Positions 1,233 to 23,954 of a stretch of 24,000 nucleotides of DNA are shown here, piece by piece. This DNA is from Lentzea pudingi. Lineage in GTDB: Bacteria > Actinomycetota > Actinomycetes > Mycobacteriales > Pseudonocardiaceae. The notes beneath the pieces are model-generated. The model was given only the letters and a program-made list of their open reading frames with translations. It searched no databases and had not been told where the DNA came from. The position numbers and the translations under genes were made by a program. The DNA lies in assembly GCF_014646255.1 (NCBI RefSeq), contig NZ_BMNC01000004.1, forward strand, positions 178,480 to 202,479. The letters run 5' to 3'. The first letter of the stretch is position 1; each line of letters opens with the position of its first letter.

Positions 1233-1345
1233 AAGCCTTGCCGACGACTCGCCGCCGGCCGGTGCCGGGCGGTGCCGGACGGCCGGGAACCACTGGTCCG
1301 GGGTGGACTGGGTGGGCGGCGGCTTGGTCCGTAGGATCAGCGGGC

Positions 1346-2398
1346 GTGGAGGGAAACGCGACGCTGTTCGACGTGGCACGGGTGGCAGGGGTGTCCCTGG
1401 CGACCGCGTCGAGGGCGATCAACGGCAGTGCTCGGACGGTGGGCGCGGAACTGCGCGAGAAGGTGCTGCGGGCCGCGCAGGAGTTGGACTACTCCCCGAA
1501 CGTGGCTGCCAGGGCGATGAAGCGCGGCCACGCCGAGGTGGTCGGCATGATCGTCCCCGACATCGCGGACCCCTACTTCTCGGGCATCGCCTCGGGGGTC
1601 ATGAAGGCCGCCGACGAGCAGGGCCTGATGGTGTCGATCGCCAGCACGCGCCGGCAGAGCAGCCGGGAAGCCGAGTACCTGGAGGGATTCCGCCGCCAGC
1701 GCAACCGCGCGGTCATCCTCGCGGGCAGCCGCACCACCAGCCGTGCCGAGGTCGACCGCCTGCGCGCCGAGGTCGACCGCTTCGAGGCGCAGGGCGGCAG
1801 GGTCGCGGTGGTGAGCCAGCGCAAGCTCCCGGTGGACACCGTGGTCGTGGAGAACCGCCAGGGCGCCAGGGCGCTGGCGGCGGACCTCGCCGGACTGGGC
1901 TACCGCGACTTCGTCGTGCTCGCCGGCCCCCGCGACCTGCTCACCGCCAAGGACCGGCTCGACGGTTTCCGGACGGGTCTCGCCGACCACCGCGTCGAAC
2001 TGGCCAGGGAGAGGGTCGTCAACGGCGAGTTCAGCAGGGACGGTGGCTTCCAGGCGATGGAGCAGGTCCTGGACGAGCGCGACGACATCGACTGCGTGTT
2101 CGCCGTCAACGACGTCATGGCGCTCGGGGCGATCGCGGCCATCCGTTCGCGGGGACTCGACGTACCCCGCCACCTGTCGATCGCGGGCTTCGGCGACATC
2201 TCGACGCTGCGGGACATGTCGCCGCGGCTGACGACCGTGCGGGTGGACCTCGAGAAGTTGGGGCGCCTGGCGCTGGAGATGATCTTGTCGGACGGTGGGG
2301 GCGTGCCGCGCACCCACCGGGAGAAGTGCCAGGTGGTGCGGGGGTCCAGCACCCCTGGCCGGAAACCCGCCGGCCGCGGGGCGGCAGCGAGGAAATGA
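1346..2398 (+). CDS. LacI/GalR-family transcriptional repressor
   Basis: Track ORF 1238..2398. The N-terminal HTH is 'ATLFDVARVAGVSLATASRAINGSARTVGAELREKVLRAAQELDYSPNVAARAMK', followed by a periplasmic-binding-protein-like sugar-binding core (VGMIVPDIADPYF..., FAVNDVMALGA). I prefer the in-frame GTG at 1346 (350 aa, normal family length); the 36 codons upstream are G/P/W/T-rich and not HTH-like. Confidence 0.9.
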   Translation: MEGNATLFDVARVAGVSLATASRAINGSARTVGAELREKVLRAAQELDYSPNVAARAMKRGHAEVVGMIVPDIADPYFSGIASGVMKAADEQGLMVSIASTRRQSSREAEYLEGFRRQRNRAVILAGSRTTSRAEVDRLRAEVDRFEAQGGRVAVVSQRKLPVDTVVVENRQGARALAADLAGLGYRDFVVLAGPRDLLTAKDRLDGFRTGLADHRVELARERVVNGEFSRDGGFQAMEQVLDERDDIDCVFAVNDVMALGAIAAIRSRGLDVPRHLSIAGFGDISTLRDMSPRLTTVRVDLEKLGRLALEMILSDGGGVPRTHREKCQVVRGSSTPGRKPAGRGAAARK

Positions 2399-2442: not shown

Positions 2443-2997
2443 TCACGCTCCTCGTCGAACTCCCATCTCCTCCATGGTCAGCCTCAACGCCTTCAGCCCG
2501 AAGTGGACCCTGCTGCGCAGGGTCGCCTGTGGCACGCCCAGTTCGGCGGCCACCTCGCGGTACGACCTGTCGCGCAGGTAGGTCTCGACCAGGGCGGTCC
2601 GCTGGTCCGAGCTGATCCGCAGCAGCGCGACCTGCACCAGGCGCCGGTCGATCGCGGTGCCCGCGATGTCGGTGCTGACCTCACCGGCCGCGGCGGCGGC
2701 TCTCATCGCGGCGGCGATCCGCTTGTCGTGGCGCAGTCGCGAGCGGACCTCGTCGATCACCACGTTGCGAGCGATGGTGAACAGCCACACGCGAACGGTG
2801 GCCAACTCGGGCTTGAAGCCGCCCGCGGACTTCCACGCCCGCAGGAACACCTCCTGCACCGCCTCTTCCGCCGCGCAGCCGTCACCCAGCTGCCGCACTG
2901 CGAAGCGGTGCAACTCCGGCGCGTGCAAGGCGTAGACCTCCCGGACCCTGAAGCTGCCGTGCAGGTCGGGGCTCTGTCGACTGCCGATGTCCGCCAT
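2443..2997 (-). CDS. ECF (group 4) RNA polymerase sigma-70 family factor
   Basis: 184 aa. Region 2 reads 'HAPELHRFAVRQLGDGCAAEEAVQEVFLRAWKSAGGF...RVWLFTIARNVVIDEVR'. Region 4 reads 'SDQRTALVETYLRDRSYREVAAELGVPQATLRSRVHFGLKALR'. The SD GGGGAG lies 4 nt before the ATG. Confidence 0.9.
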   Translation of the reverse strand: MADIGSRQSPDLHGSFRVREVYALHAPELHRFAVRQLGDGCAAEEAVQEVFLRAWKSAGGFKPELATVRVWLFTIARNVVIDEVRSRLRHDKRIAAAMRAAAAAGEVSTDIAGTAIDRRLVQVALLRISSDQRTALVETYLRDRSYREVAAELGVPQATLRSRVHFGLKALRLTMEEMGVRRGA

Positions 2998-3131: not shown

Positions 3132-3983
3132 ATGCGTATTGCTCGCACGACTGCGCTCGTGGGCGCGGCAGCACTGCTCATGACCGCACTCGGCGCCACG
3201 CCCGCGTCGGCGTCGGCCGACCAGCCCCGTGTCCACCTGCTGACTTCCGACGGAGTCCTGAGCACCAGGAGCTGGTCGTCCCCGTTGCTGTCCCAGCAGC
3301 GCGTCCGCGTCAGCGGGCTCAAAGCCCGCGACCGGCTGATCGGCATGGACGTGCGGCCCGCGACCCGAGCGTTGTACGCGATCGCTGCCTCTGGCCAGCT
3401 CTACGTCCTCGACCCGCGCACGGGCAAAGCGACCGCGGTGGGCGCGCCCGCCGCGATCACGGGAACGGCCGTGGGCTTCGACTTCAACCCGGCCGTGGAC
3501 CGCATCCGCCTGGTCGCGACCAGCGGCCAGAACCTGCGGCTGCACCCGGACACCGGGGCGGTGGCGGCCGTCGACACACCACTCGCCTATGCCCAGGGAG
3601 ACCGCGCCGAGGGCAGCACTCCGCAGGTTTCCGGCGCCGGCTACACCAACAGCGTCGCCGGTGCGACGTCCACCACCCTCTACGACCTGGACAGCCGCAG
3701 GGACACCCTCGTCACGCAGGGCACGGTCGCGGGCGCGACCCCGGTCGTGTCCCCGAACACCGGACAGCTGTTCACCGTCGGCGGCCTCGGCCTCGACATC
3801 GCCAAGACCAACGGCTTCGACATCGCCACCGTGGGCGGACGCGACTCCGCCATGGCCGCGGTGCAACCCGACTTCTCGTTGCTGGGCGGATCGCTCCTGG
3901 TGAAGGTCAGCCTGACCACCGGCCGCGCCTCGGTCGTCGGCCTCGCCGGAGGTGACGTCGTAGGACTCGCGTTCGCCCGCTGA
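3132..3983 (+). CDS. Secreted DUF4394 domain protein
   Basis: 283 aa. The signal peptide is MRIARTTALVGAAALLMTALGATPASASA. The body contains 'LIGMDVRPATRALYAIAASGQLYVLDPRTGKAT', 'GFDFNPAVDRIRLVATSGQNLRLHPDTG', 'AGYTNSVAGATSTTLYDLDSRRDTLVTQ' and 'NGFDI', the repeated motifs I associate with DUF4394. The SD GGGAGAA precedes the ATG. Confidence 0.8.
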   Translation: MRIARTTALVGAAALLMTALGATPASASADQPRVHLLTSDGVLSTRSWSSPLLSQQRVRVSGLKARDRLIGMDVRPATRALYAIAASGQLYVLDPRTGKATAVGAPAAITGTAVGFDFNPAVDRIRLVATSGQNLRLHPDTGAVAAVDTPLAYAQGDRAEGSTPQVSGAGYTNSVAGATSTTLYDLDSRRDTLVTQGTVAGATPVVSPNTGQLFTVGGLGLDIAKTNGFDIATVGGRDSAMAAVQPDFSLLGGSLLVKVSLTTGRASVVGLAGGDVVGLAFAR

Positions 3984-4132: not shown

Positions 4133-4618
4133 GTGAGGACCGTGCTCCCGAACGACCAGCCCGGCGACGAACCGGGACTCCTCTCGCAGGAGCTGGACCT
4201 GGACCGTCCGAGACCGTCGATCGCGGCGGTCAGGGACTGGACCAGGGACGGGCTGAGCGGCCTGGACGAAGACGTCCTGGAGGACGTCGTGCTGGTGATC
4301 AACGAGCTGGTGAGCAACGCGTTCGACCACGGCCTGCCCCCGCGCCGGATCAGGCTGCACCGGTCCAGCGATCTCCGCCTGGTCCGGGTGGAGGTCGACG
4401 ACGCCTCGCTCGACACGCCGGTCGTGGGCGCCTCACGCCTCAACGCCGACCGCGGCCGGGGATTGATCATCGTCGATCGGCTGGTCAAGGGGTGGGGGGT
4501 CGTGGACCAGCCGGCCGGCAAGACCGTCTGGGCGGAGGTCGACGCGGTGCTTCCAGTAGGTCGCGACGAGCCTTCTCGACACGATCACCCGACGCTGACC
4601 GCCCGCAGCGTGTCATAG
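4133..4618 (+). CDS. RsbW/SpoIIAB-like anti-sigma factor / serine kinase (HATPase_c only)
   Basis: 161 aa. The N-box is 'VVLVINELVSNAFDHG', followed by 'RLVRVEVDDAS' and the G-box-like 'DRGRGLIIVDRLVKGWGV...GKTVWAEV'. An in-frame alternative GTG is at 4142. Confidence 0.8.
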   Translation: MRTVLPNDQPGDEPGLLSQELDLDRPRPSIAAVRDWTRDGLSGLDEDVLEDVVLVINELVSNAFDHGLPPRRIRLHRSSDLRLVRVEVDDASLDTPVVGASRLNADRGRGLIIVDRLVKGWGVVDQPAGKTVWAEVDAVLPVGRDEPSRHDHPTLTARSVS

Positions 4619-4748
4619 AGCGGACGCGGGTCGGCTGGGCCGTGGCCGCGCGGCGGGCAGTCCGGCAGCGGTCGAGCTCGGCGTTGATCATGTGCGGCCG
4701 CGTGGCAGCTCTTACGCTCGGAACGCGTCCTGTCGCACTGAGGATCGA

Positions 4749-5162
4749 ATGTCGTTGCCGAGCAGAAGGCCAGGAACTCCGATGGACCCCACAGTTCGGG
4801 CCGCGTCGGTCACCGTCAGCGCAGCCGAGCACTCCGACGTGCTGGTCGTGCGGCTGTCCGGCGACCTGGACGCCGAGTCCGCCGTCGCGGCGCAGGCCGC
4901 GCTGGTCGAGATGACCGACGGGCTGATCCCGCCCGCACGGGTCGTCCTCGACCTGACAGCGGTGGACCTGCTGTCAGCAGCCGGTGTCCGCGTTCTGCAA
5001 GGCCTCGTCGGCACGTTCGCCGAGCGGAACGTCGGTGTTCGTCTCGCGGCGGACCCGGACAGCCTCGTGCACTCGATGGTGAGGCTTGCTCTGCAGGACC
5101 ACGGAATCGGTGTTCACACCAGCGTGTCAGACGCCCTCCGTGCCAGGTGTTCAGGCAGGTGA
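4749..5162 (+). CDS. STAS-domain anti-sigma-factor antagonist (RsbV/SpoIIAA-like)
   Basis: Track ORF 4692..5162. The STAS core is 'VLVVRLSGDLDAESAVAAQAAL...RVVLDLTAVDLLSAAGVRVLQGL...VGVRLAADPDSLVHSMVRLALQD'. ATG 4749 is preceded by GAGGA, and ATG 4782 is preceded by AGGAA; either could be the start. Confidence 0.8.
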   Translation: MSLPSRRPGTPMDPTVRAASVTVSAAEHSDVLVVRLSGDLDAESAVAAQAALVEMTDGLIPPARVVLDLTAVDLLSAAGVRVLQGLVGTFAERNVGVRLAADPDSLVHSMVRLALQDHGIGVHTSVSDALRARCSGR

Positions 5163-7115
5163 CCACGGCAGGTCGACGAGATCGAGGACGAAGGCCGCCG
5201 GACTGCCGCGGTGGGCGATCAACACCGGTTCGTGGTGATGTGCGGCGAGTTGCCCGGCGAGGTCGTAGAGGATCCGCACGCCCGCGCTGAGCAGGTGGGA
5301 GACCTCGGACAGGTCGACGGTCAGGGGCAGCACGCCGCCTCGGGAGGCGAGGAACAGGTGGCGTGCGAACTCGGTCGAGGTCATCGCGTCCACTGGGCCG
5401 TGCACGCGTACGACCGCCGTGTCCGGGCCTTCCACCGTCTCGACGCGGAACGCCGGGGAGGGCTCCTCGTGCGAGGCGTCGGGGCTCGTGCCGGAGGCGA
5501 GCATCGGGGGTTGGCGGATGCGGTGCCGGAAGGTCACCGTGGTGCCGCGCGCGCCTGGTGGCTCGCCGGCGCGTTGCGGGGGATGGGTGACGGTGACCTC
5601 GTCGACGAGTTGCTGGCACAGCATCAGGCCACGTCCTCTGTCGGTGCTGCCGGGGTCCGCCGCACGCCAGCGGCCCTCGTCGCCGACGCGGAGTTCGCAG
5701 ATGCCGTCGGGTGTCAGCTGTGCGGTGATCAGGACGGTGCCCTGCCGGCCTGGCGGGTAGGCGTGTTCGGCCGTGTTGGTGGTCGCTTCGCCGACGGCGA
5801 ACTCGAGGACCTCCCGGTCTCGTCGGCCCGCGTTGACGCCGGCCAGCCAGTCCCGGATCTCGCGCCGGGCGAGAGCCAGGTTGGAGAGCGTGCTGGCGAA
5901 CCGCACCGACAGCGGTGGCACCGGCTCGGCCAGGCGCTGGACCGCGAGGGTGGTGACGTCGTCGCGGTAGCCGGTGCGGGTGAGCAGGTCGATGGTGAGC
6001 CGGCAGACTCGTTCGACCGCCTGATCAGTCTCGGTGTGGGGCAGCACGCGGTTCATCGCGGCGTCCGCAGCCAGCGTGGCGAGTTCGACAGCGGCTTCGC
6101 CCGGTGTGCGGCCGGGCCGTTCGACCAAGCCGTCTGAGTACAGCAGGACCAGGTCGTCGGGGGCGAGGCGAGCAGTGGACAGAGCGGGGGAGCGGCCCAC
6201 ACCGAGTGGCCCGCTCGTCGGACCGCTCAGGAACTCGGTGGTGCCGTCCGCTCGGACCACGAGCGGCGGTGGGTGGCCGCACGAGCTGTAGGACAACTCT
6301 CCTGTCCGCGGATCGAGCTTGACCACCGCGAGTGTGGCGGCGTGCAGGGCCCGGTGACCCGCGGCGAAGGAATTGGTCTGCTCGAGCGCGCTGAGCAGGT
6401 CGTCGTTGGTGTGCAACAGGAACGCCAGGACCGTGCGCAGCTGGCCCATCGCCGCCGACGCGGTGACGCCGCTTCCCGCGACGTCACCCACCGCCAGGAC
6501 GACGGCGCCGTCCTTCAGCGGGATGGCGTCGAACCAGTCACCTCCGGCGGTGGGGCCGTGCTCGCCGGCCAGGTACCTCGCGGCGATCCTGGCCTGCGGC
6601 AGCACCGGCAGCGATGTCGGCAACAACGCGGCTTGCAGCTCCGCGACCCCACGGCCGCGCCGATCCCGGACCTGCTCGGTGACGTCGACGGCGTACGCCG
6701 AAACGCCGCGAACCGCCCCGTCGTCGTGGAAGTACGGCTCCATCACGAGATCGACGAAGGCCTCCACCGGCCTACCGGCGGCACGATCGACCTGGACACC
6801 CCACTCACCGACCGTGTGCGGCTCTCCTGTGACGTAGACCCGGTCGATCCCGGCCTGGACTCGTCGGCCCTCCAACCCCGGCAGCAGCTCACGGGCCGCC
6901 AGGCCCACGGGTTCGGAGACCCCGGCGAATCTGCGGAAGGCTTCGTTCGCCGCGACCAGCCGCTGCTCAGGCCCTTCCCAGGCGGCGAGCGCCGGCGACG
7001 ACTCGTCGAACCGGTCACGCACGACGTGCGGATCGCCGACGCGCCGCAAGTGCGTGGCGTCGTCGCGCCGCGATTCCGGTCCCATATCCGCTAGACGTAC
7101 CCAGCCTCGCGTCAC
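5151..7115 (-). CDS. Multidomain partner-switching protein: PAS - PP2C/SpoIIE phosphatase - RsbW-like HATPase - STAS (Rv1364c-type architecture)
   Basis: 654 aa. The N-terminus is PAS-like (ALAAWEGPEQRLVAANEAFRRFAG...). PP2C motifs are 'GGDWFDAIPL...LAVGDVAGSGVTASAAMGQLR', 'LLYSDGLVE' and 'YRDDVTTLAVQRL'. The kinase N-box is 'EFAVGEATTNTAEHAY', followed by 'DRGRGLMLCQQLVDEV'. The C-terminal STAS is 'AVVRVHGPVDAMTSTEFARHL...LTVDLSEVSHLLSAGVRILYDL'. An alternative start is the ATG at 7085. Confidence 0.9.
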   Translation of the reverse strand: MTRGWVRLADMGPESRRDDATHLRRVGDPHVVRDRFDESSPALAAWEGPEQRLVAANEAFRRFAGVSEPVGLAARELLPGLEGRRVQAGIDRVYVTGEPHTVGEWGVQVDRAAGRPVEAFVDLVMEPYFHDDGAVRGVSAYAVDVTEQVRDRRGRGVAELQAALLPTSLPVLPQARIAARYLAGEHGPTAGGDWFDAIPLKDGAVVLAVGDVAGSGVTASAAMGQLRTVLAFLLHTNDDLLSALEQTNSFAAGHRALHAATLAVVKLDPRTGELSYSSCGHPPPLVVRADGTTEFLSGPTSGPLGVGRSPALSTARLAPDDLVLLYSDGLVERPGRTPGEAAVELATLAADAAMNRVLPHTETDQAVERVCRLTIDLLTRTGYRDDVTTLAVQRLAEPVPPLSVRFASTLSNLALARREIRDWLAGVNAGRRDREVLEFAVGEATTNTAEHAYPPGRQGTVLITAQLTPDGICELRVGDEGRWRAADPGSTDRGRGLMLCQQLVDEVTVTHPPQRAGEPPGARGTTVTFRHRIRQPPMLASGTSPDASHEEPSPAFRVETVEGPDTAVVRVHGPVDAMTSTEFARHLFLASRGGVLPLTVDLSEVSHLLSAGVRILYDLAGQLAAHHHEPVLIAHRGSPAAFVLDLVDLPWSPA

Positions 7116-7124
7116 CTATGCGTG

Positions 7125-8699
7125 TCAGTCGCTGCCCTGATGGTCAGGGCGCGCGGACGCGGCACGATCGACGCGCTCGTACACCGCCAGCACCTCCTGG
7201 CCGAGCTTGTCACGCGCGTAGCGCGCCATCACACGGTCACGCGCGGCGATGCCCAACTCCTCCCTCAGCGTCTGGTCGGCGAGCAACCGCCGGAGCGTCC
7301 GAGCCAGAACACGAGGTTCACGTGGCGGTACGTGCAGGCCGGTGATGTTGTGCACGACGATGTCCTCCAGCGCGCCCACCGCGGTGGCGACCACCGGGAC
7401 ACCACACGCCATGGCCTGCAGAGCCACCAGGCCATACGGTTCGGCGGTGGGTACGCAGACCACGACGTCGGCGGAACGCAACAAGACGGGCATGCGGGCA
7501 CGGGGGACTTCGCCGGCGAACGTGACCCGGTCCCGGACCCCCAGGTCGTGTGCGAGCTCGCGCAGCTCCTGAGCGACCGTGCTGGACCTCGGGTTGTCTC
7601 CCGCGATCACCAGCTCGACGGTCTCGAGCGCGGGCAGGCACGCGATGATGTCCGCGAAATCGGTGCCGCGAAAGAATTTCCCGACGGTGACGAGACGTTG
7701 CAGCGCTCCCCGGGCGGCGACCGGGCCGTCCGGGTGGAAGTGCTCCACGTCGACTCCGGACGGGATCATGGAGACCTGGATCCGGCGCACGCCCTGTCGC
7801 CACATCTCGGAGGCTTCCGGTGAACTGGCCGCCACGACCCATGAGGCCTTGCGCGCGACGAGCCTTTCGACGTCGGCGCGCTGCTGGATCTCCTGCGCAC
7901 TGACCGCGTTGTAGGAGTGCACGACAGGGATCCAGGTCCGGCGAGAACCGATGGCGGCCGCCAGTCCGGACGTCCAGTGGTGCGTGTGCGCGATGTCCGG
8001 CGGACGCGACCTCCAGCGTTGTGCGAGGAACTGCGCGAACTCTTCGAGGTGAGGCACGACCTCGTCCTCGGTGAGCCGGCGGGCAGGCCCTGCCGGCACG
8101 TGCACCACCTCGTACCCGTCCTCGGTGCGGACGCGATCCGGAGCTCGGGGATCGTCCCGCCGGGTGTAGACGACCACTTCGTGCCCGAGGCCGCGCAGGG
8201 CTGCCGCCAGCTGTGCGACGTGCGTCCCCTGCCCGAGATCGTCAGCGAGCGGGCTGGCCTGCTCGGACACCAGGGCGATCCGCATCGACGCCCGTCCGGC
8301 CCTGCGCGCCACGCGGATCGCGTCCGACAGGGTTTCGTGTCGTGAGAAGTTTTCAGCCAACCCGGCGACCTGAAGCGTTCGCGTGATGTGCGCTCCAGGC
8401 GTGACGAGATGAAGCGGGATGTCACGGCTCCGCGCGTGCTGTTGGATTTCCATGAGCGCGTTGATGCCGGACGAACTGAAGTAGGACACCTGGCCGAGGT
8501 CGACGACGACGGCGTGGGGACACGTCTCCACCTGAGCCGCCAGCTCCGCGACCAGCGCGGGAGCCGTGCTCAGGTCGACCTCTCCCGCAACGGAAACGAT
8601 CGATATCCCGCCATCGAGTGTCGTGCCCACCGACCAATCCTCGGGCACGTCGAAAAGAGGGTCCCGCATCTCGATCGCTCCCTTGTGCCGGGACGTCAT
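7125..8699 (-). CDS. STAS domain fused to a GT4-family (GT-B, MshA/PimA-like) glycosyltransferase
   Basis: 524 aa. The STAS domain (about aa 20-125) reads 'ISIVSVAGEVDLSTAPALVAEL...AVVVDLGQVSYFSSSGINALMEI...IPLHLVTPGAHITRTLQVAGL'. The GT4 part starts at M139 with 'MRIALVSEQASPLADDLGQGTHVAQLAAALRGLGHEV', followed by 'THHWTSGL', 'VTFAGEV', 'ADVVVCVPTAEPYGLVALQAMACGVPVVATAVGALEDIV'. An alternative start is the ATG at 8669, preceded by AAGGGAG. Confidence 0.9.
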   Translation of the reverse strand: MTSRHKGAIEMRDPLFDVPEDWSVGTTLDGGISIVSVAGEVDLSTAPALVAELAAQVETCPHAVVVDLGQVSYFSSSGINALMEIQQHARSRDIPLHLVTPGAHITRTLQVAGLAENFSRHETLSDAIRVARRAGRASMRIALVSEQASPLADDLGQGTHVAQLAAALRGLGHEVVVYTRRDDPRAPDRVRTEDGYEVVHVPAGPARRLTEDEVVPHLEEFAQFLAQRWRSRPPDIAHTHHWTSGLAAAIGSRRTWIPVVHSYNAVSAQEIQQRADVERLVARKASWVVAASSPEASEMWRQGVRRIQVSMIPSGVDVEHFHPDGPVAARGALQRLVTVGKFFRGTDFADIIACLPALETVELVIAGDNPRSSTVAQELRELAHDLGVRDRVTFAGEVPRARMPVLLRSADVVVCVPTAEPYGLVALQAMACGVPVVATAVGALEDIVVHNITGLHVPPREPRVLARTLRRLLADQTLREELGIAARDRVMARYARDKLGQEVLAVYERVDRAASARPDHQGSD

Positions 8700-8784
8700 C
8701 GAGCTGAATGCTTAACCCGAGAAGCCGCTGAACGCTACCGACCGTAGCCCCCTCGCAACGCTGCCCACAAGCCGAGAAGTGTGA

Positions 8785-8810
8785 GTTTGACTTTCGCTGA
8801 GAACGGGTAT
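8785..8810 (+). promoter_or_regulatory. SigB/SigF-type promoter: GTTTGA (8785-8790) - N14 - GGGTAT (8805-8810)
   Basis: Read directly. It matches the general-stress sigma consensus (Bacillus SigB GTTTaa-N12-15-GGGtAt; Streptomyces SigB GNNTN14-16GGGTAC/T; mycobacterial SigF GTTT...GGGTAT). It lies about 75 nt upstream of the STAS gene start at 8886 and is oriented toward the STAS and RsbW-like pair. Confidence 0.5.
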
Positions 8811-8840
8811 GTCCACCGACGACCGATATGCTCAGGAAAT

Positions 8841-8854
8841 CTGATCGCGATCAG
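8841..8854. promoter_or_regulatory. Perfect 14-bp palindrome CTGATCGCGATCAG in the STAS gene leader
   Basis: Read directly; it is self-complementary. It lies between the SigB/F-type -10 element and the GTG at 8886. Confidence 0.3.
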
Positions 8855-8885
8855 TTGGCCATTCGGCAGGGAAGAGGCCTTCGGT

Positions 8886-9251
8886 GTGACTGAGCCAGCC
8901 CCGAGCGTGCAGCCGATTTCCGTCGGGATCAGCCAAGTCGGCGACCAGGTGTCGGTGGCGTCCATCGCCGGTGAGATCGACATGCTGACCGAAGCGGTGG
9001 TCCGGGACGCGGTCCGCTGCCAGCTCGCGGCAAAACCGCGCTTGCTCGTGCTGGACCTGACCGAGGTCGGGTTCATGGCGTCGTCCGGGCTCGACCTGAT
9101 CCTGCAGATCCAAGCTCGCGCGCTTGAACAGGGCACTCGCCTCTCCGTGGTCGCGAACCAGGGTTCCGTGCGCCGCCTTCTGAGTGTGAGCGGCGTCGAC
9201 ACCGCCGTGGACCTGCATCACGATCTCGGCTCGGCTCTGCGGTCGTGCTGA
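8886..9251 (+). CDS. STAS-domain anti-sigma-factor antagonist (RsbV/SpoIIAA-like)
   Basis: Track ORF 8781..9251, but its first 35 codons cover the promoter. The GTG at 8886 is preceded by GGAAGAGG. The STAS core is 'VSVASIAGEIDMLTEAVVRDAV...LLVLDLTEVGFMASSGLDLILQI...RLSVVANQGSVRRLLSVSGV', with a canonical phosphorylatable Ser in the 'ASSG' motif. Confidence 0.85.
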   Translation: MTEPAPSVQPISVGISQVGDQVSVASIAGEIDMLTEAVVRDAVRCQLAAKPRLLVLDLTEVGFMASSGLDLILQIQARALEQGTRLSVVANQGSVRRLLSVSGVDTAVDLHHDLGSALRSC

Positions 9252-9392
9252 GTGGCCGGTCAGAATGTGGATCTCGTGATGAGAACTCAACCGAAAACGG
9301 GTTTGGACTCGCTTTGCAGGTGATTGTGGCGAGAACTGGTCACCGTCGTGGTGAGATGCGGTGGATCAGCGAACGTGGAGGCAAGATCGCTC

Positions 9393-9851
9393 GTGACCAT
9401 CGCCGATGAGGACGCCGCGTCATTGGTCGTCGACCTTCCGGTCGAGCGCGAATCGCTGGTGCCCGATGTGCGCCGCGAGGTCGATGCGGCATTGCGCGAC
9501 CTGGGAGAGGATCACCGTTACGACGTGCTCCTCGTCGTGACCGAACTGGTGAGCAACGTCCTGGACCACACGGCCGGCCCCGGCCGGCTTCGAGTTCTTC
9601 GCGGCGACGCTCCCTGCGAGGTCTCGGTGGAAGTCGACGACACGTCGTCCGCGCGGCCGCGTCATGGCCGATCGAGGCTGGGCCCGCACCGCGGCAAGGG
9701 GATGGTGGTCGTGGGCAACGTCTCGAACGACTGGGGGACGAGACCGGGACCGGAGAGCGGTAAGACCGTCTTCGCGGTGATCCGATGTGGCGACGGTGCG
9801 ACGTCGGCCGCCCCATGCGAGCCCTCGGACGGCGTCCACTACGGAGTCTGA
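9393..9851 (+). CDS. RsbW/SpoIIAB-like anti-sigma factor / serine kinase (HATPase_c only)
   Basis: Track ORF 9324..9851 (TTG start). The N-box is 'VLLVVTELVSNVLDHT', followed by 'EVSVEVDDTS' and 'HRGKGMVVVGNVSNDWG...GKTVFAVI'. I prefer the GTG at 9393, with GGAGG 11 nt upstream; GTG 9375 or TTG 9324 are possible. Confidence 0.8.
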   Translation: MTIADEDAASLVVDLPVERESLVPDVRREVDAALRDLGEDHRYDVLLVVTELVSNVLDHTAGPGRLRVLRGDAPCEVSVEVDDTSSARPRHGRSRLGPHRGKGMVVVGNVSNDWGTRPGPESGKTVFAVIRCGDGATSAAPCEPSDGVHYGV

Positions 9852-11215: not shown

Positions 11216-13488
11216 TTACGGCAGTTGAACGCCGACGACGCAGGTGTCGTCGTCGGTGTTGGACTCGCCGTGTGCGAGCAGGTGGTCGAGCAGCTCGTCC
11301 AGGTTCGACGCCGGCGTTCGCGCTGCCTCGCACAGGTGGTCCAGGCAGTCGTCGAGCGGAACGTCCCTGCGCTCGACCAGGCCGTCGGTGTACAACAGCA
11401 GGGTGTCACCCGGTTCCAGCTGCAGCTGACCCTCCTCATAGGACGGTTCGGCGAGGGCGCCGAGCAGCACACCGCGCAGCATCGGCAGCAGTTCGGCGTC
11501 GCCGTCGCGGATCAGCACCGGCGGCAGGTGGCCCGCGCGGGCCCAGCGCAGGACGCGGGTGTGCGGATCGTAGAGGCCGCAGATCGCGGTCGCGATGATG
11601 TTGTCGCTGAGGTGGTGCGCCACGAGGTTGAGCCACGTGAGCAGTTGCGCGGGGCCGGCGCCGGTGGCGGCGAGCCCGCGCAGTGCGTTGCGCAGCACCA
11701 CCATGCCAGTCGCGCCCTTGATGCCGTGGCCGGTGATGTCACCGACCGACACGAGGATCTGCTTGGTGGGCAGGACGACGGCGTCGTACCAGTCGCCGCC
11801 GACGAGCTCCTCCTGCGCGGCGGGCCGGTACCGCACCGCCACGCGCAGTCCGAACGCGTCGATCGTGGGGTGTGTCGGCGGCATGATCACTTGCTGGAGC
11901 TGCAACGTGAGCGTGTTGCGCTCCAGGGATTCCTGCTCGGTGATCGCGAGCTGGTCCTGCGTCGCGGACAGCGCGACCTCGGTCCAGTGCTGGGCGGACA
12001 CGTCCTGGTACGCCCCGCGGACGGCGAGCAGTTCGCCCTGTGAGTCGAGCACGGGCTCGGCGATCACCCGCACGTGCCTGGTGACGCCGTCCGGGCGTTG
12101 CAGGCGGAACGCCGTCGACGCCTGCTGCCGGTCCCGCAGGACGTTGTGCACGAACCCGTTGAGCGAGAGGACGTCGTCGGGGTGGGCGTGTGCCGCGATC
12201 TCCGCCAGGGGCACCGGATCGGTGCCGGGTGCGAGCCCGTACAGGGCGTACAACTGGCTGTTCCACATGATCCTGCCGCTGTGACGTTCCTCCTCGAAAC
12301 CACCGACACGGCCGAGTCGCTGCGCGTGTTGCAACAGGTTCGCCAGACGGGCCGTCTCGTCCTGCGCCCTCCACACGACCAGGACCAGCGCACCGTGCCT
12401 GGTGATGCTCACACTGGCCGCGACCGTGAGCGGCACCTCGTCGATGAGCGCCGCGAGGGTCATGCGCTCGGCCCGGAACGATTCGCCGGTGGCGTGCACG
12501 TGCTCGATCTTGTCGAACAGGTTTCCTTCGGCCGAGGCCAGCGGGTAGGCCTCCAGCAGTGACTTGCCCGCGATCGCGGAGCGCGGCCTGCCGGCGAGGT
12601 CGACGAACCCGCGGTTCACGTGGTGCACCCGGAAGTCGGCGATCGTGCCGTCGGGCGAGATCTCCGGTCCGAGCACGAGAGCGGGGTCGAGCAGCCCGTC
12701 GGCGAGGTCGACGAGTTCGGACGGCGCCCGCGCGAGATTCGGTGCCGCGGTGCTGTCGAGGGTGGCGGCGCACAGCTGCGCCAGCGCTTCCACCTGTTTG
12801 TGCACGCTCAGGGACTGGGGCGCGAGCGGAGCAGGCCAGCAGATCTCCAGCACGCCGGCGATCCGCCCGCCGGTCCCGGCGGGGACGGCGACGCGGCCGG
12901 GCAGGCCCGGGCCGATCGACGGCAGGCCTGACTCGTCGAGGTCGACGATCCACACGGCGTCCCGCTCGACCAGCGCGCGGCGGGCGGGAGTCGACACACC
13001 GGGCGGGACGTAGTGCCAGCGGCTCGCCTCGCCCGGCTCGAACCCGGCGTGCCCGGCGAGCGTCAGCGACGCGTCGGAACCCGCTGACCAGATCGCCACC
13101 GCGCTCGCGCCCAGGGGTGCGAGCGCGTGGGTGAACAGGGACTGCGCGACGGCCTGCGTGTCATCGGCGCCCAACGCGCCGCTCTCCGCGGTCCGCAGCC
13201 GGACCGCGGTCGTTCTGCTCGGCTCGTCGGGCACCGCGGTGAGGGTGTCGCCGGACACCTCGTTGATGATCTCCACGGCGAGCGTGAGCTGTGTGATGCC
13301 TGCCTGCTCGGCGAGCAGCGCGAGCTGTTCGGCGGCCTGTGCCGGGCCGCAGCGCAGCCGTTCGACGAGCACGCCTTTGGCGAGTTCCACCAGCGCCCGG
13401 CCGTCCGCGGTGGCCCGCACCTCGTCCATCTCCCTGCTGAGCCGGTCGATCGTGCTCACGAGCCGGTTCACGGCAGGCTGACCGGCGG

Positions 13489-13492
<4 letters not shown>
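11216..13492 (-). CDS. ANTAR - GAF - PAS - PAS - PP2C/SpoIIE phosphatase multidomain protein
   Basis: Track ORF 11216..13519. The N-terminal ANTAR domain is 'VSTIDRLSREMDEVRATADGRALVELAKGVLVERLRCGPAQAAEQLALLAEQAGITQLTLAVEIINEV'. It is followed by a GAF-like region and two PAS-like regions ('LVLGPEISPDGTIADFRVHHVNRGFVDLAG', 'GRIMWNSQLYALYGL...FRLQRPDGVTRHVRVIAEPV'). The C-terminal PP2C reads 'VGGDWYDAVVL...VSVGDITGHGIKGATGMV', 'LLLYTDGLVE', 'DDDTCVVGVQL'. The preferred GTG at 13492 overlaps the upstream TGA (GTGA). Confidence 0.9.
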
Positions 13493-18033
<4,541 letters not shown>

Positions 18034-18164
18034 CCGCACTTCCTCCACTGCCTGGCTGGAACGACGTGGAGGCAGACCTGTGTCTTCAAGTGCACCTCGT
18101 TCGACCATGAGATTACTGGACCCGGGGTGCGTTCCGGACGGCTGGACGACGTCCGGCTCCGTGC

Positions 18165-18953
18165 TCAGGACCGGGTCACGGTGTCGAGCAGGTTCTTCGC
18201 GACGTCACGGAGTTTCGTGTTCTCGTGCTGCGACTGCTCCACGAGCATCTCGAAGGCTTCGTCGGCGTCGCAGGAGTGCACGGCCATCAGGACGCCCTTC
18301 GCCTGGTCGATGACGGCCCGCGACACCAGGGCCTGTTCCAGGTTGGCGATGTGGTCGCTGGTGCGCTTCCAGCGGTGGGCGCTGGCGATCGTGGTCGACG
18401 CCGCCGTCGTGAAGAGCCGCATGAGCCCCTCGTCGAACGGGTCGAAGGCCGCGGCCGTGTAGCTGTAGACGTTGAGCGACCCGAGGTGCTTCTCCTCGCC
18501 GGGCTTCGAAGCCGGCAGCAGAACCGGCACCGACAGGTAGGCCCGGATGCCGTGCTCGCTCGCCGACGCCTCGAACTCCGGCCACTCGTCGAGGTGTTCA
18601 CCGACAACCGCGCGCACGGCCTGCAGAGTACGTGCGGACTCCAGGCACGGACCTCGATCGGCGCTGTACTGCTTCTCGTCGACCTCGTTGAAACGGGCGT
18701 TCGTGGAGGCCGCGGTCCGCGGTTGCGCCAGATCCACCACCGACACCGTCACCGCGTCGGCGTCGGGAATCGCTCTGGCCGCGGTGTCCGCGAGTCTCTG
18801 CAGAGCGGTGTTGAGCGGCTCCTCGCCGGTGAAGGAGTCGCGGAGCACCGTCAGCGCCTCGGTGGTCTCGTCCAGGCGAGCGAGGGCGTCAGGGCGCCCG
18901 CCGTCGCTCGACCCGCTCGAGGAGCGGTCGAACGCGCGCGTTTCATCGGCCAT
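18165..18953 (-). CDS. GAF + ANTAR domain RNA-binding regulator
   Basis: 262 aa. The GAF-like core is 'ALQRLADTAARAIPDADAVTVSVVD...YLSVPVLL...LGSLNVYS'. The C-terminal ANTAR is 'ANLEQALVSRAVIDQAKGVLMAVHSCDADEAFEMLVEQSQHENTKLRDVAKNLLD'. The SD GAAGAGGA lies 7 nt upstream of the ATG. Confidence 0.9.
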   Translation of the reverse strand: MADETRAFDRSSSGSSDGGRPDALARLDETTEALTVLRDSFTGEEPLNTALQRLADTAARAIPDADAVTVSVVDLAQPRTAASTNARFNEVDEKQYSADRGPCLESARTLQAVRAVVGEHLDEWPEFEASASEHGIRAYLSVPVLLPASKPGEEKHLGSLNVYSYTAAAFDPFDEGLMRLFTTAASTTIASAHRWKRTSDHIANLEQALVSRAVIDQAKGVLMAVHSCDADEAFEMLVEQSQHENTKLRDVAKNLLDTVTRS

Positions 18954-23661: not shown

Positions 23662-23954
23662 GCAAGTTCCCCCTGCGATCTGGTGCGGCAGCTCGTCCGG
23701 GCACTCCTCGCCGGAGGTCGTCCGAACAGCTGGGGCAACCGTGCGCCACTGATCTTGCAAAGATCGTGTGGCGGTCTTGAACCCGCAGTTCAGGCCTTTC
23801 AGGTCGGGTTTCGGCGCCCCATCCGCCACTCGGTCAGGGGTGTCGTGGAACCCGGGCCGTCGCGTTCGATTTCGCTCGACGGGAACATTCGGTTGAGCCG
23901 ATGTGCCGCGCCGTACGTACCCCCGGTCATGCGCCGCTTGAACGAGGAGTACGT

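What the first reader, a model, noticed from the sequence alone, without database searches (positions are those of the whole stretch)
7125..8699. STAS (anti-sigma antagonist) domain fused to a GT4 glycosyltransferase: a possible enzyme output for partner switching
A single uninterrupted ORF joins a complete RsbV/SpoIIAA-type STAS domain to a full-length MshA/PimA-like GT-B glycosyltransferase. The STAS domain keeps the phosphorylatable Ser position ('VDLGQVSYFSSSG', aligning with SpoIIAA 'DLSFMDSSG'). The gene is embedded among three RsbW-like kinases, three other STAS modules and a PP2C phosphatase, and sits 9 nt upstream of the Rv1364c-like gene. Classical partner switching controls a sigma factor. 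Here the phosphorylation-switchable module is covalently attached to a sugar transferase, which suggests stress-gated control of a glycosylation reaction (cell envelope, a compatible solute such as a glucosyl/inositol derivative, or a thiol) instead of, or alongside, transcription. I do not know of a characterised STAS-regulated glycosyltransferase.
Basis: partly seen in the sequence, partly recalled or inferred. Interest (0 to 1): 0.85.

Follow-up and report, generated by a model that had tools for sequence, protein, structure and literature searches.

The report
STAS switch fused to dead glycosyltransferase
A soil actinomycete (Lentzea) gene really does join a phosphorylation-switch (STAS) domain to a sugar-transferase fold, but that fold has lost its catalytic residues, so it is more likely a binding or sensing part of a stress-signalling module than a regulated enzyme.

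Summary
A single 514-524 codon ORF (7125..8699, minus strand; probable start 8669) encodes a complete STAS domain followed by a GT4/GT-B fold. It is 100% identical to a Lentzea pudingi protein. Ten protein clusters keep the fusion.

Aligned with T. elongatus sucrose-phosphate synthase, C. glutamicum MshA and strictly conserved unfused paralogues, the fused GT domain has lost five shared active-site features. These are the GG-loop glycine, the catalytic His (now Asn), the two donor-phosphate-binding basic residues, and the second Glu of EX7E (now Gln). The domain is nevertheless more conserved than the STAS domain. Known inactive GT-B carbohydrate binders (GtfB, Asp1) show the same signature.

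Comparably degenerate GT4 paralogues in Micromonosporaceae, Streptosporangiaceae, Dactylosporangium and Mycobacterium lie beside STAS, RsbW-like and PP2C genes. Canonical paralogues almost never do: 15/23 versus 1/37 within 2 kb. One Lentzea genome carries the split form, STAS then GT4, as adjacent genes.

A STAS-regulated sugar transferase is already characterised (Anabaena All4160, 2026), with a different catalytic fold.

Verdict: a new variant of a known kind, best read as a pseudo-glycosyltransferase recruited into partner switching. Interest 0.6.

The parts
7125..8669 (-). Coding sequence of the STAS-GT4 fusion protein. It is 514 aa from the probable start at 8669; the open frame extends to the ATG at 8699, giving 524 aa.
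   Evidence: 100% identical to NCBI Lentzea pudingi P0001. AAGGGAG lies 8 nt upstream of the ATG at 8669, and orthologues start at the same Met.
8319..8615 (-). STAS domain (aa 29-127 of the 524-aa frame).
   Evidence: PF01740 E 2e-16 and PF13466 E 1.5e-15. TIGR00377 above its cutoff. PDB hits 4qtp, 8ih8 (RsfB), 4hyl and 1sbo. AF2 block-mean pLDDT is 83-94 over this stretch.
8472..8474 (-). Codon of the predicted phosphorylatable serine: the middle S of 'SSSG', S76 in the 524-aa numbering and S66 in the 514-aa numbering.
   Evidence: Aligns with the Ser of RsfB 'LGSVG' and of TM1442 'MDSAG'. Conserved in 9/10 fusion orthologues; P0006 has SPCG. Phosphorylation itself was not tested.
8286..8318 (-). 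Short linker. The last STAS helix runs almost directly into the first beta-strand of the GT fold.
   Evidence: AF2 model: helix 114-125, then strand 130-134 (514-aa numbering), block-mean pLDDT 84-96, pTM 0.83.
7743..8234 (-). N-terminal Rossmann half of the GT-B fold (Glyco_transf_4). Its degenerate features: 'DDLGQGTHV' with a 5-aa deletion in place of 'GGVDAGGQNVHV'; the catalytic-His position is Asn264 (codon 7908-7910); a 10-aa deletion follows it; and the TeSPS R105 position is Glu.
   Evidence: Pfam. Alignments.
7236..7673 (-). C-terminal Rossmann half (Glycos_transf_1). Its degenerate features: 'VGKFFRGTDF' in place of 'VGRLVPRKGF' (K341 at codon 7677-7679, just upstream of this span; T346 at codon 7662-7664), and 'AEPYGLVALQAMACG' in place of 'YEPFGIVPLEAMACG' (E420 kept at codon 7440-7442; Q428 at codon 7416-7418).
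   Evidence: Pfam. Alignments.
5151..7115 (-). Downstream gene, 9 nt after the fusion's stop: PAS - SpoIIE/PP2C - HATPase_c_2 (RsbW-like) - STAS, an Rv1364c-like one-chain partner-switching module.
   Evidence: Pfam. Same strand with a 9-nt gap. Co-transcription is inferred.
8781..9251 (+). Divergently transcribed stand-alone STAS protein.
   Evidence: PF01740 E 5e-13.
9324..9851 (+). RsbW-like kinase/anti-sigma candidate downstream of that STAS gene.
   Evidence: HATPase_c_2 at 26.6 bits, just under the cutoff of 27.4. 41-44% identical to RsbW-like ORFs beside degenerate GT4 genes in other Lentzea genomes.
4133..4618 (+). RsbW-like kinase/anti-sigma candidate.
   Evidence: HATPase_c_2 E 1.5e-10.
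4692..5162 (+). Stand-alone STAS protein downstream of the RsbW-like gene.
   Evidence: PF01740 E 1.5e-12.
11216..13519 (-). ANTAR - PAS - PAS - SpoIIE/PP2C phosphatase, a candidate cognate phosphatase. In L. cavernae its orthologue lies directly upstream of the fusion gene.
   Evidence: Pfam. In L088, HK -> ANTAR-PAS-SpoIIE -> fusion, with a 162-nt gap on the same strand.
13489..18108 (-). Hybrid histidine kinase (7 x HAMP, GAF, HisKA, HATPase_c, REC) upstream of the ANTAR-PP2C gene. The pair is conserved next to the fusion in L. cavernae.
   Evidence: Pfam. L088.

Best explanation
The gene encodes a partner-switching component. An N-terminal SpoIIAA/RsbV-type STAS domain carries a phosphorylatable serine (S66 in the 514-aa numbering). 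A very short linker ties it to a GT4 (GT-B) domain that no longer works as a nucleotide-sugar transferase.

Shown:
- The fusion, its conservation, and the intact STAS phospho-motif.
- The loss of the donor-binding and catalytic residues, while the fold stays under stronger constraint than the STAS domain.
- The recurrent genomic linkage of similarly degenerate GT4 paralogues with STAS, RsbW-like and PP2C genes.
- A split STAS -> GT4 gene pair in another Lentzea genome.

Inferred:
- Neighbouring RsbW-like kinases phosphorylate S66, and a SpoIIE-type PP2C removes the phosphate. The candidates are the co-transcribed Rv1364c-like protein or the syntenic ANTAR-PAS-PP2C.
- The pseudo-GT domain acts as a binding module, either for a sugar, sugar-phosphate or glycan ligand, or for a protein partner. 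The conserved replacements (His -> Asn, Glu -> Gln, Lys/Arg -> Glu) look like a remodelled pocket rather than decay.
- In that role it either feeds a metabolic or envelope signal into the switch, or carries the switch's state to a non-sigma target such as the active paralogue of the heptose cluster.

Whether the domain is an input or an output is not resolved by the data.
For: Domains and conservation:
- Domains and ORF.
- The fusion is kept in 10 clusters.
- In 1.84 billion representative proteins, only one 50%-identity cluster spans both the STAS and the GT N-terminus.
- The GT domain is better conserved than the STAS domain: 68% versus 56% mean pairwise identity, and 130/376 versus 20/114 invariant positions.

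Active site:
- Seven of the eight donor-side and catalytic positions examined, plus acceptor-side K164, are identical in TeSPS, MshA and at least 9 of the 10 canonical paralogues aligned. The other two, TeSPS R253 and R105, stay basic in the canonical paralogues (R253 is Phe in MshA). Only 3 of these 11 positions are kept in the fusion clade.
- In TeSPS, H158A and E331A are inactive and R249A is the weakest of the Arg mutants (PMC7264703).
- The same signature, two basic residues lost and Glu -> Gln, defines the inactive carbohydrate-binding GT-B proteins GtfB and Asp1 (bioRxiv 10.1101/219105).

Structure:
- The AF2 model has pLDDT 92.2 and pTM 0.83 with a 4-residue linker.
- The GT part superposes on TeSPS and on UDP-bound MshA with TM 0.85-0.87.

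Linkage to partner-switching genes:
- A STAS, RsbW-like or PP2C gene lies within 2 kb of 15/23 degenerate GT4 genes versus 1/37 canonical ones (Fisher p = 1e-7).
- Pfam confirmed the neighbours in Streptosporangium, Dactylosporangium, Micromonospora, Lentzea and Mycobacterium.
- Split version: the closest free STAS (P0123, 45% identity) lies 158 nt upstream of a degenerate GT4 (50% identical to the query GT) and beside GAF-SpoIIE and RsbW-like genes.
- Partial synteny with L. cavernae: HK -> ANTAR-PP2C -> fusion.
Against: - No experiment. 'Inactive' is inferred from sequence, and the query itself keeps E331 (Glu420) and has Lys at the R249 position.
- An unusual donor or mechanism cannot be excluded.
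- One fusion orthologue (P0006) lacks the phospho-Ser, so phosphorylation cannot be the universal switch.
- The immediate gene context of the fusion is not conserved across all five genomes examined. Two of them (L001, L089) have no PP2C within the DNA read.
- Actinomycete genomes are rich in partner-switching genes, and the loci compared are not phylogenetically independent: roughly 7-8 independent contexts.
- The NJ bootstrap could not resolve how many times degeneration arose.
- The inter-domain arrangement rests on pTM alone. No PAE or coordinates were available.
Confidence: 0.58

Rival explanations
1. The GT4 domain is an active retaining glycosyltransferase whose activity is gated by phosphorylation of the fused STAS domain, as shown for Anabaena All4160. 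Stress signalling would then directly control a glycosylation step.
For: - The complete GT-B fold is predicted with high confidence and in a closed, ligand-bound-like conformation.
- The first Glu of EX7E is kept as E or D, and R178 is kept.
- The domain is strongly conserved.
- There is a direct experimental precedent for a STAS-fused sugar transferase under kinase/phosphatase control (PMC13555669).
Against: - The catalytic His, the GG-loop glycine, the Arg and Lys that hold the donor diphosphate, and the ribose-binding Glu are all replaced.
- The replacements differ between orthologues at the Arg and Lys sites.
- TeSPS H158A is inactive.
- The precedent uses a different catalytic fold (Bac_transf, PF02397), which is not found here.
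Confidence: 0.2
2. The STAS domain is not used as a phospho-switch here. It serves as a constitutive docking, oligomerisation or nucleotide-binding domain for the GT-like domain, and the nearby partner-switching genes are unrelated neighbours in a signalling-rich region.
For: - P0006 has Pro at the phospho-Ser position.
- Two of the five genome contexts (L001, L089) lack a PP2C within the DNA read; L089 has only an RsbW-like gene about 4 kb away.
- STAS domains in SulP transporters act without phosphorylation (established knowledge; PMC8256260).
Against: - The Ser is conserved in 9/10 orthologues, within a canonical DLxxVxFxxSSG context.
- The gene is 9 nt from a PP2C-kinase-STAS gene.
- Three of five contexts carry SpoIIE genes.
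- The split version sits between a GAF-SpoIIE gene and an RsbW-like gene.
Confidence: 0.12
3. The fusion is a recent, lineage-restricted accident with a decaying GT domain and no selected function.
For: - It is restricted to one young clade, a single 50%-identity cluster.
- The catalytic residues are lost and variable.
Against: - Ten clusters at 56-68% identity to the window protein keep an intact frame.
- 130 of 376 GT positions are invariant, so the domain is better conserved than the STAS domain.
- New residues are conserved at former active-site positions: Asn, Gln and an invariant Glu.
Confidence: 0.05

Closest known systems
Anabaena sp. PCC 7120 All4160 (and All2285, Synechocystis XssP): STAS-fused sugar transferases under partner-switching-like control (Harada, Matsuoka and Ehira 2026, PMC13555669)
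   Same: - An N-terminal STAS domain with a conserved phosphorylatable Ser (S74 there, S66 here) is fused to a sugar-transferase-type domain.
- RsbW-like kinases and SpoIIE-type phosphatases are encoded in the genome or neighbourhood.
- The output is not a sigma factor.
   Different: - The C-terminal domain there is Bac_transf (PF02397, a phosphoglycosyl transferase) and is genetically required for polysaccharide synthesis. Here it is a GT4/GT-B fold lacking the catalytic and donor-binding residues.
- The lineage is cyanobacteria versus Pseudonocardiaceae.
- The authors report the STAS + Bac_transf architecture as rare outside cyanobacteria.
Catalytically inactive GT-B proteins GtfB and Asp1 of the streptococcal accessory Sec system (bioRxiv 10.1101/219105)
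   Same: - A GT-B fold retained with two active-site basic residues lost and an essential Glu replaced by Gln.
- They function as carbohydrate or substrate-binding partners rather than as transferases.
   Different: - They carry an extra extended beta-sheet domain.
- They act in adhesin glycosylation and export.
- They have no STAS domain and no link to partner switching.
- No detectable close sequence relationship was seen here; resemblance to GtfB or Asp1 themselves was not tested.
Retaining GT4 enzymes: T. elongatus sucrose-phosphate synthase (6KIH) and C. glutamicum MshA (3C4Q/3C48)
   Same: - They are the best sequence and structure matches for the GT part: E 1.7e-45 and 2e-27 by sequence, TM 0.85-0.87 by structure.
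- Same two-Rossmann fold, and the acceptor-phosphate Arg (TeSPS R178) is kept.
   Different: - GG loop, catalytic His, donor-phosphate Arg and Lys, and the second Glu of EX7E are not kept.
- 5-aa and 10-aa deletions lie in active-site loops.
- The MshA equivalog model scores 141 bits against a cutoff of 462.5.
Classical and non-classical partner switching: SpoIIAA/AB, RsbV/W, M. tuberculosis Rv1364c, V. fischeri SypA/SypE, P. aeruginosa HsbA-HsbD (PMC8256260, PMC5085249)
   Same: - STAS protein, RsbW-type kinase and PP2C phosphatase gene sets.
- There is precedent for non-sigma outputs: SypA acts on an unknown target in polysaccharide and biofilm formation, and HsbA acts on a diguanylate cyclase.
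   Different: - In those systems the STAS protein is a free single-domain protein. Here it is covalently tied to a GT-like domain.
- No group-3 sigma factor gene is present in the window.
Canonical actinomycete paralogue in the GmhB-GT9-GT-GT4-GmhA-HldE (heptose) operon (e.g. Saccharothrix longispora P0041)
   Same: About 50% identical to the GT part of the fusion. It is the evident evolutionary source of the degenerate paralogues.
   Different: - It keeps all the shared active-site residues (7/7 of the scored key positions in 35 of the 37 canonical loci; 6/7 in the other two).
- It sits in a sugar-nucleotide biosynthesis operon.
- It almost never has partner-switching neighbours.

Membership tests
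STAS / anti-sigma-factor antagonist (SpoIIAA/RsbV type) | Profile match above the curated thresholds | tested here: met
   PF01740 scores 60.1 bits (cutoff 22.6) and covers profile positions 7-106 of 106. PF13466 scores 57.6 bits (cutoff 29.2). TIGR00377 scores 56.9 bits (cutoff 53.45).
STAS / anti-sigma-factor antagonist (SpoIIAA/RsbV type) | Conserved phosphorylatable Ser in the DSSG-type loop at the start of helix 2 | tested here: met
   The middle S of 'SSSG' aligns with the Ser of RsfB (8ih8) and TM1442 (1sbo). It is kept in 9/10 fusion orthologues.
STAS / anti-sigma-factor antagonist (SpoIIAA/RsbV type) | Cognate RsbW-type kinase and PP2C phosphatase | tested here: inconclusive
   Three HATPase_c_2 modules and two SpoIIE domains are encoded within 5 kb. 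Which one acts on this STAS domain, if any, cannot be told from sequence.
STAS / anti-sigma-factor antagonist (SpoIIAA/RsbV type) | Reversible phosphorylation and antagonism of an anti-sigma factor | not testable with these tools
   Needs in vitro kinase and phosphatase assays and interaction tests.
CAZy GT4 retaining glycosyltransferases (MshA / SPS / PimA type) | GT-B fold with Glyco_transf_4 and Glycos_transf_1 halves | tested here: met
   Pfam E 1e-25 and 5e-31. AF2 pLDDT 92. Foldseek TM 0.85-0.87 to 6kih and 3c4q.
CAZy GT4 retaining glycosyltransferases (MshA / SPS / PimA type) | N-terminal Gly-Gly loop contacting the donor phosphate | tested here: not met
   'DAGGQNVHV' becomes 'DDLGQGTHV' with a 5-aa deletion. 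The first Gly is L/F/H across the clade.
CAZy GT4 retaining glycosyltransferases (MshA / SPS / PimA type) | Catalytic His of the 'T-x-H' strand end (TeSPS H158) | tested here: not met
   Asn264 in the query; N/D/Y/T across the fusion clade. TeSPS H158A is inactive (PMC7264703).
CAZy GT4 retaining glycosyltransferases (MshA / SPS / PimA type) | Arg and Lys of 'GRxxxxKG' binding the donor diphosphate | tested here: not met
   'VGRLVPRKGF' becomes 'VGKFFRGTDF'. Arg is K/D/E/G and Lys is T/N/S/G/D across orthologues.
CAZy GT4 retaining glycosyltransferases (MshA / SPS / PimA type) | EX7E motif | tested here: not met
   The first Glu is kept (E in 5/10, D in 5/10). The second Glu is Gln in 8/10, Ala in 1 and Glu in 1.
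CAZy GT4 retaining glycosyltransferases (MshA / SPS / PimA type) | Glycosyl transfer from a nucleotide sugar | not testable with these tools
   Needs an enzyme assay.
MshA (D-inositol-3-phosphate glycosyltransferase) equivalog | TIGR03449 score above the trusted cutoff | tested here: not met
   141 bits against a cutoff of 462.5.
STAS-fused sugar transferase of the All4160 type | N-terminal STAS with phospho-Ser fused to a sugar transferase | tested here: met
   compared with PMC13555669.
STAS-fused sugar transferase of the All4160 type | C-terminal Bac_transf (PF02397) phosphoglycosyl transferase domain | tested here: not met
   No PF02397 hit; the C-terminal part is GT4.
Inactive carbohydrate-binding GT-B proteins (GtfB / Asp1 type) | GT-B fold with loss of two active-site basic residues and Glu -> Gln | tested here: met
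   compared with 10.1101/219105.
Inactive carbohydrate-binding GT-B proteins (GtfB / Asp1 type) | Extended beta-sheet domain and partnership with GtfA or the accessory Sec system | tested here: not met
   The AF2 secondary structure shows no extra domain, and there are no such genes in the window. This is a resemblance of mechanism only, not membership.
Anti-phage defence GT4 (PF20706 GT4-conflict / PADLOC systems) | Match to a defence-system model | tested here: not met
   PADLOC gives no hits for the fusion or its five neighbours. The weak PF20706 hit (34 bits) is shared with the housekeeping paralogues.

The most novel reading that the evidence does not exclude
Degenerate GT4 domains are a previously unrecognised, recurrent component of actinomycete partner-switching modules. 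In this reading they are pseudo-glycosyltransferases derived from a heptose-cluster enzyme. They would either sense a sugar, sugar-phosphate or glycan signal and pass it to the STAS / RsbW-like / PP2C switch, or serve as the switch's non-sigma target. The Lentzea STAS fusion and the split STAS -> GT4 pair would be the Rosetta-stone evidence for a direct physical partnership.
Probability: 0.35. Interest if true: 0.75.

Novelty: new variant of a known kind. Interest (0 to 1): 0.6.

Why it matters
Partner switching is usually pictured as a way to free or capture a sigma factor, and how these modules reach other targets is an open question. Actinomycetes encode dozens of orphan STAS, RsbW-like and PP2C proteins.

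This gene gives a concrete, testable physical link between a STAS switch and a non-sigma domain. The comparative data suggest that a whole set of 'glycosyltransferase' annotations in actinomycete genomes are in fact regulatory pseudoenzymes.

If the GT-like domain binds a sugar nucleotide, sugar phosphate or envelope glycan, it would connect cell-envelope or carbon status to stress signalling. If it is instead an active enzyme, it would extend the 2026 cyanobacterial finding of direct STAS control over glycosylation to a second enzyme fold and a second phylum.

It is also a caution for annotation. The protein is named either 'anti-sigma factor antagonist' or 'D-inositol-3-phosphate glycosyltransferase' in public databases, and neither name describes it.

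Tried and rejected
- A homologue search with the STAS part alone returned only two weak hits and not even the self cluster. The word index performs poorly on short queries, so one search was wasted.
It did yield 80 paralogue loci, which became the canonical-versus-degenerate comparison.
- Apparent N-terminal extensions of the match in L070 and L054 were checked. They are chance upstream frame, not STAS fusions.
- Exact look-ups of P0009, P0010 and P0011 found no contigs. P0009 and P0013, at first taken as the 'nearest unfused' relatives, turned out to be fusions with short start calls.
- A structural census against AFDB50 was not possible because the library was unavailable.
- Defence-system reading (PF20706 hit): rejected.
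- MshA/mycothiol reading: rejected.
- ANTAR-target or other RNA element upstream of the gene: no Rfam hit, and the 5' region folds no better than shuffles, z = -0.5.
- The promoter and terminator scan was uninformative.
- NJ with 100 bootstraps could not decide whether the degenerate clades arose once or several times, so no claim is made.
- dN/dS was not attempted, because the orthologues with DNA in hand are too divergent (about 60-68% amino-acid identity) for synonymous sites to be informative.


Full report
**1. What is in the sequence**

The minus-strand ORF 7125..8699 is uninterrupted at 524 codons. Its codon-position GC is 0.74/0.49/0.83, as expected for a real gene in a 70% GC genome.

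- Pfam places a complete STAS domain at aa 29-127 (PF01740, E 2e-16, profile positions 7-106 of 106).
- The two halves of a GT4/GT-B fold lie at aa 156-319 and aa 343-488 (E 1e-25 to 5e-31).
- The protein is 100% identical to an NCBI protein of Lentzea pudingi that starts ten codons later. The ATG at 8669 has AAGGGAG 8 nt upstream, and all orthologues start at that Met. The protein is therefore most likely 514 aa.
- The Rv1364c-like gene (PAS-PP2C-kinase-STAS) begins 9 nt after the stop codon.

**2. The fusion is real but rare**

Eight 90%-identity clusters in the first search carry both domains. Two apparent 'unfused nearest relatives' (P0009, P0013) are the same genes with short start calls. 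Their longer database versions, P0271 (L. cavernae) and P0270 ('Nocardia' sp. NRRL S-836), are full fusions.

I searched all 1.84 billion representative proteins with aa 11-200 (the STAS domain, the linker and the first GT strand-helix units). Exactly one 50%-identity cluster spans both parts (E 4e-61). Every other hit among the best 150 matches only the STAS part or only the GT part.

The architecture is therefore confined to one young clade, named genomes of which are all Lentzea or close relatives. Independent STAS-GT-B fusions with unrelated domains elsewhere cannot be excluded by this design.

**3. The STAS half looks fully functional**

- It matches mycobacterial and other anti-sigma antagonist structures (4qtp, RsfB 8ih8, 4hyl, TM1442).
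- The residue aligned with their phosphorylatable Ser is the middle Ser of 'SSSG' (codon 8472-8474).
- This Ser is kept in 9 of 10 fusion orthologues. L. chajnantorensis has SPCG.

**4. The GT half is not an ordinary enzyme**

The best sequence and structure matches are T. elongatus sucrose-phosphate synthase (6KIH, E 1.7e-45, TM 0.85) and C. glutamicum MshA (TM 0.86-0.87). It is not MshA: TIGR03449 scores 141 bits against a cutoff of 462.5.

About 50% identical unfused paralogues are widespread in actinomycetes. They sit in a GmhB-GT9-GT-GT4-GmhA-HldE operon. These 'canonical' paralogues keep 'DAGGQNVHV', 'T-Y-H-A-L-G', 'VGRLVPRKGF' and 'YEPFGIVPLEAMACG' almost without change.

I aligned TeSPS, MshA, ten canonical paralogues and the ten fusion proteins with L-INS-i. 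Seven of the eight donor-side and catalytic positions, plus acceptor-side K164, are identical in TeSPS, MshA and at least nine of the ten canonical paralogues. R253 and R105 stay basic in the canonical paralogues; MshA has Phe at R253. In the fusion clade:

| Position (TeSPS numbering) | Fusion clade |
|---|---|
| First Gly of the GG loop | L/F/H, with a 5-residue deletion before it |
| H158 | N/D/Y/T |
| R249 | K/D/E/G |
| R253 | variable |
| K254 | T/N/S/G/D |
| E331 | E or D |
| E339 | Q in 8, A in 1, E in 1 |
| R105 (acceptor side; Lys in MshA and the paralogues) | invariant Glu |
| K164 | variable |
| R178 | kept in 9 of 10 |

A 10-residue deletion also follows the H158 position.

In TeSPS, H158A and E331A abolish activity. 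R249, which makes two ionic bonds to the UDP terminal phosphate, gives the weakest of the Arg mutants. E339 holds the ribose hydroxyls (PMC7264703).

The domain is not decaying. It is more conserved among the fusion orthologues than the STAS domain: 68% versus 56% mean pairwise identity, and 130/376 versus 20/114 invariant positions. Several former active-site positions have acquired new conserved residues (Asn, Gln, Glu).

The AF2 model is confident, with pLDDT 92.2 and pTM 0.83. The last STAS helix runs into the first GT strand through about four residues.

Loss of two basic residues plus Glu -> Gln is exactly the signature reported for the catalytically inactive, carbohydrate-binding GT-B proteins GtfB and Asp1 (bioRxiv 10.1101/219105). 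From this I infer, but cannot show, that the domain does not transfer sugar from a nucleotide donor and has been remodelled into a binding module.

**5. Degenerate GT4 paralogues travel with partner-switching genes**

The genome scan returned 80 paralogue loci. Scoring seven key positions splits the GT genes cleanly into canonical (6-7 of 7 kept) and degenerate (0-5 of 7 kept).

A STAS, RsbW-like or PP2C gene lies within 2 kb of 15 of 23 degenerate genes but only 1 of 37 canonical genes. Within 5 kb the counts are 18/23 and 2/37 (Fisher p = 1e-7 and 5e-9).

Pfam confirmed representative neighbours:

- **Streptosporangium:** STAS / GAF-ANTAR / PAS-GAF-SpoIIE, then the GT 164 nt downstream on the same strand. 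In a second species a MEDS protein lies in between.
- **Dactylosporangium:** ANTAR-SpoIIE is divergent, and a group-3 sigma factor lies downstream.
- **Nine Micromonosporaceae species:** an RsbW-like HATPase_c_2 gene lies within 5 kb of the GT in all nine. Where checked with Pfam it is a 244-254-aa protein, with a weak N-terminal STAS match in L077, transcribed divergently and as close as 73 bp.
- **L. aerocolonigenes:** an RsbW-like gene lies 442 bp away.
- **Mycobacterium persicum:** a STAS protein -> CheR-PAS -> GT operon.

The loci are not phylogenetically independent; I count about 7-8 distinct contexts. Within Micromonosporaceae the contrast is 9/9 degenerate versus 0/6 canonical. NJ bootstrapping could not resolve whether degeneration happened once or several times.

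**6. A split version exists**

The free STAS protein most similar to the fused one (P0123, 45% identity, Lentzea sp. CA-135723) shares the N-terminal 'DDWS' motif. It is encoded 158 nt upstream of a degenerate GT4 gene on the same strand.

- That GT4 is 50% identical to the query GT, with no GG loop, no Arg or Lys, and the first Glu replaced by Ala.
- The pair is flanked by GAF-SpoIIE, an RsbW-like gene and two ANTAR proteins.
- In the NJ tree this GT is sister to the clade containing the fusions.

Adjacent genes in one genome and a fusion in its relatives is the classical sign that the two proteins work together.

**7. Context of the fusion itself**

Synteny is only partly conserved.

- **L. 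cavernae:** the order is 7xHAMP hybrid kinase -> ANTAR-PAS-SpoIIE -> fusion, with a 162-nt gap. The same kinase and ANTAR-PP2C pair is in the window at 13489..18108 and 11216..13519, with CorA, an RsbW-like gene and a STAS gene inserted between it and the fusion.
- **Lentzea sp. NPDC005914:** the fusion lies between GAF-ANTAR genes and a SpoIIE gene.
- **L. chajnantorensis and NRRL S-836:** the fusion lies next to TerC and near a second degenerate GT4 in a DUF3152 operon. A free STAS gene is adjacent to that GT4 in L. chajnantorensis only. No PP2C lies in the DNA read.

**8. Comparison with what is known**

[quoted passage not shown] It is inactivated by phosphorylation of Ser74 by the RsbW-like kinase Alr3423 and reactivated by the SpoIIE-type phosphatase HenR (PMC13555669). 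The fusion had been noted in a 2021 review (PMC8256260).

That transferase is a Bac_transf phosphoglycosyl transferase, a different fold. It is genetically required for polysaccharide synthesis, and the authors describe the architecture as rare outside cyanobacteria.

Other non-sigma outputs of STAS proteins are also known: SypA, and HsbA acting on the diguanylate cyclase HsbD (PMC8256260, PMC5085249). No paper in the library combines STAS, GT4 and anti-sigma. No curated NCBIfam model covers the degenerate paralogues.

**9. Verdict**

- Observation: confirmed.
- Interpretation: partly supported. The fusion, the phospho-switch and the partner-switching setting hold. 'Regulated enzyme' is doubtful, and 'no precedent' is wrong.
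- Best explanation (confidence about 0.58): a phospho-switchable STAS domain rigidly tied to a pseudo-glycosyltransferase that serves as a ligand- or protein-binding module of a partner-switching network. Whether it acts as input or output is unresolved.
- Main rival (about 0.2): a still-active, STAS-gated GT4.
- Novelty: a new variant of a known kind.
- Interest: 0.6. The fusion alone is a narrow lineage curiosity. The recurrent coupling of degenerate GT4 paralogues with partner-switching genes is a new and directly testable lead.

Noticed in passing
window 11216..13519 (-); also L061 7429..10074, L088 5563..7839: An ANTAR (RNA-binding antiterminator) domain is fused to PAS domains and a SpoIIE/PP2C phosphatase. 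The architecture recurs in L. cavernae; in Dactylosporangium an ANTAR-SpoIIE protein without detected PAS domains sits next to a degenerate GT4. GAF-ANTAR or other ANTAR proteins also flank the fusion or a degenerate GT4 in the window (18165..18953) and in L003, L014, L039, L058, L062, L063, L086 and L088. This hints that ANTAR-mediated RNA control belongs to the same modules.
   Followed up: partly
window 13489..18108 (-): A 1539-aa hybrid histidine kinase with seven HAMP/HAMP_2 repeats, GAF, HisKA, HATPase_c and a receiver domain. It lies directly upstream of the ANTAR-PP2C gene, and its stop overlaps the annotated start of that gene by about 31 nt. The pair is conserved in L. cavernae (L088 1031..7839).
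   Followed up: partly
window 13639..18462 (+): A 1607-codon ORF lies on the strand opposite the histidine kinase gene. Its codon-position GC (0.91/0.44/0.70, against 0.68/0.43/0.94 for the kinase frame) marks it as a shadow ORF, not a gene.
   Followed up: yes
L004 7625..13832 (Saccharothrix longispora): The catalytically intact paralogue sits in a conserved operon: HAD phosphatase (GmhB-like) - GT9 heptosyltransferase - short GT - GT4 - SIS isomerase (GmhA-like) - PfkB/cytidylyltransferase (HldE-like) - SDR. This is an ADP-heptose-type glycoconjugate cluster in a Gram-positive actinomycete. I did not identify its product.
   Followed up: no
L077 8879..9613 (-), L040 8057..8821 (-) and other Micromonosporaceae loci: A 244-254-aa protein with an RsbW-like HATPase_c_2 domain in its C-terminal half is transcribed divergently from the degenerate GT4 in the loci checked. 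Pfam finds a weak N-terminal STAS match in L077 only. Where that holds, antagonist and kinase would be in one chain.
   Followed up: partly
L013 3876..7890 (-) (Mycobacterium persicum): An apparent operon: a 254-aa STAS-containing protein -> CheR methyltransferase fused to PAS domains -> a degenerate GT4 (which also has Gln at the second EX7E Glu) -> an AraC regulator. A canonical GT4 paralogue lies 5 kb away in the same locus.
   Followed up: partly
L086 4786..5946 (+) (Lentzea sp. CA-135723): A 386-aa protein combines a weak STAS match with GAF and ANTAR domains, directly upstream of the split STAS -> GT4 pair. A 685-aa GAF-HTH(AraC)-ANTAR protein lies nearby.
   Followed up: no
L062 8730..9869 (+) (Streptosporangium vulgare): A MEDS-domain protein (PF14417) is inserted between the PAS-GAF-PP2C gene and the degenerate GT4. 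It is absent from the otherwise syntenic L058.
   Followed up: no
window 4692..5162 (+) and 5151..7115 (-): The 3' ends of the convergent STAS gene and the Rv1364c-like gene overlap by 12 nt.
   Followed up: no
window 2443..2997 (-) and 3132..3983 (+): An ECF-type sigma factor gene is divergent from a DUF4394 protein gene. It is the only sigma factor gene in the window. No group-3 (SigB/SigF-type) sigma gene accompanies the many RsbW-like and STAS genes.
   Followed up: no
window 19315..22074 (-), 22963..23829 (-), 1238..2398 (+): Further regulators crowd the window: an AfsR-like SARP/BTAD-NB-ARC-TPR protein (919 aa), a LuxR-family protein and a LacI-family repressor. The region is unusually dense in signalling genes.
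   Followed up: no
public annotation of P0001-P0008, P0009/P0271, P0013/P0270: The same protein family is named 'anti-sigma factor antagonist', 'D-inositol-3-phosphate glycosyltransferase', 'glycosyltransferase' or 'hypothetical protein' in different sources. In two genomes alternative start calls hide the STAS domain altogether.
   Followed up: yes
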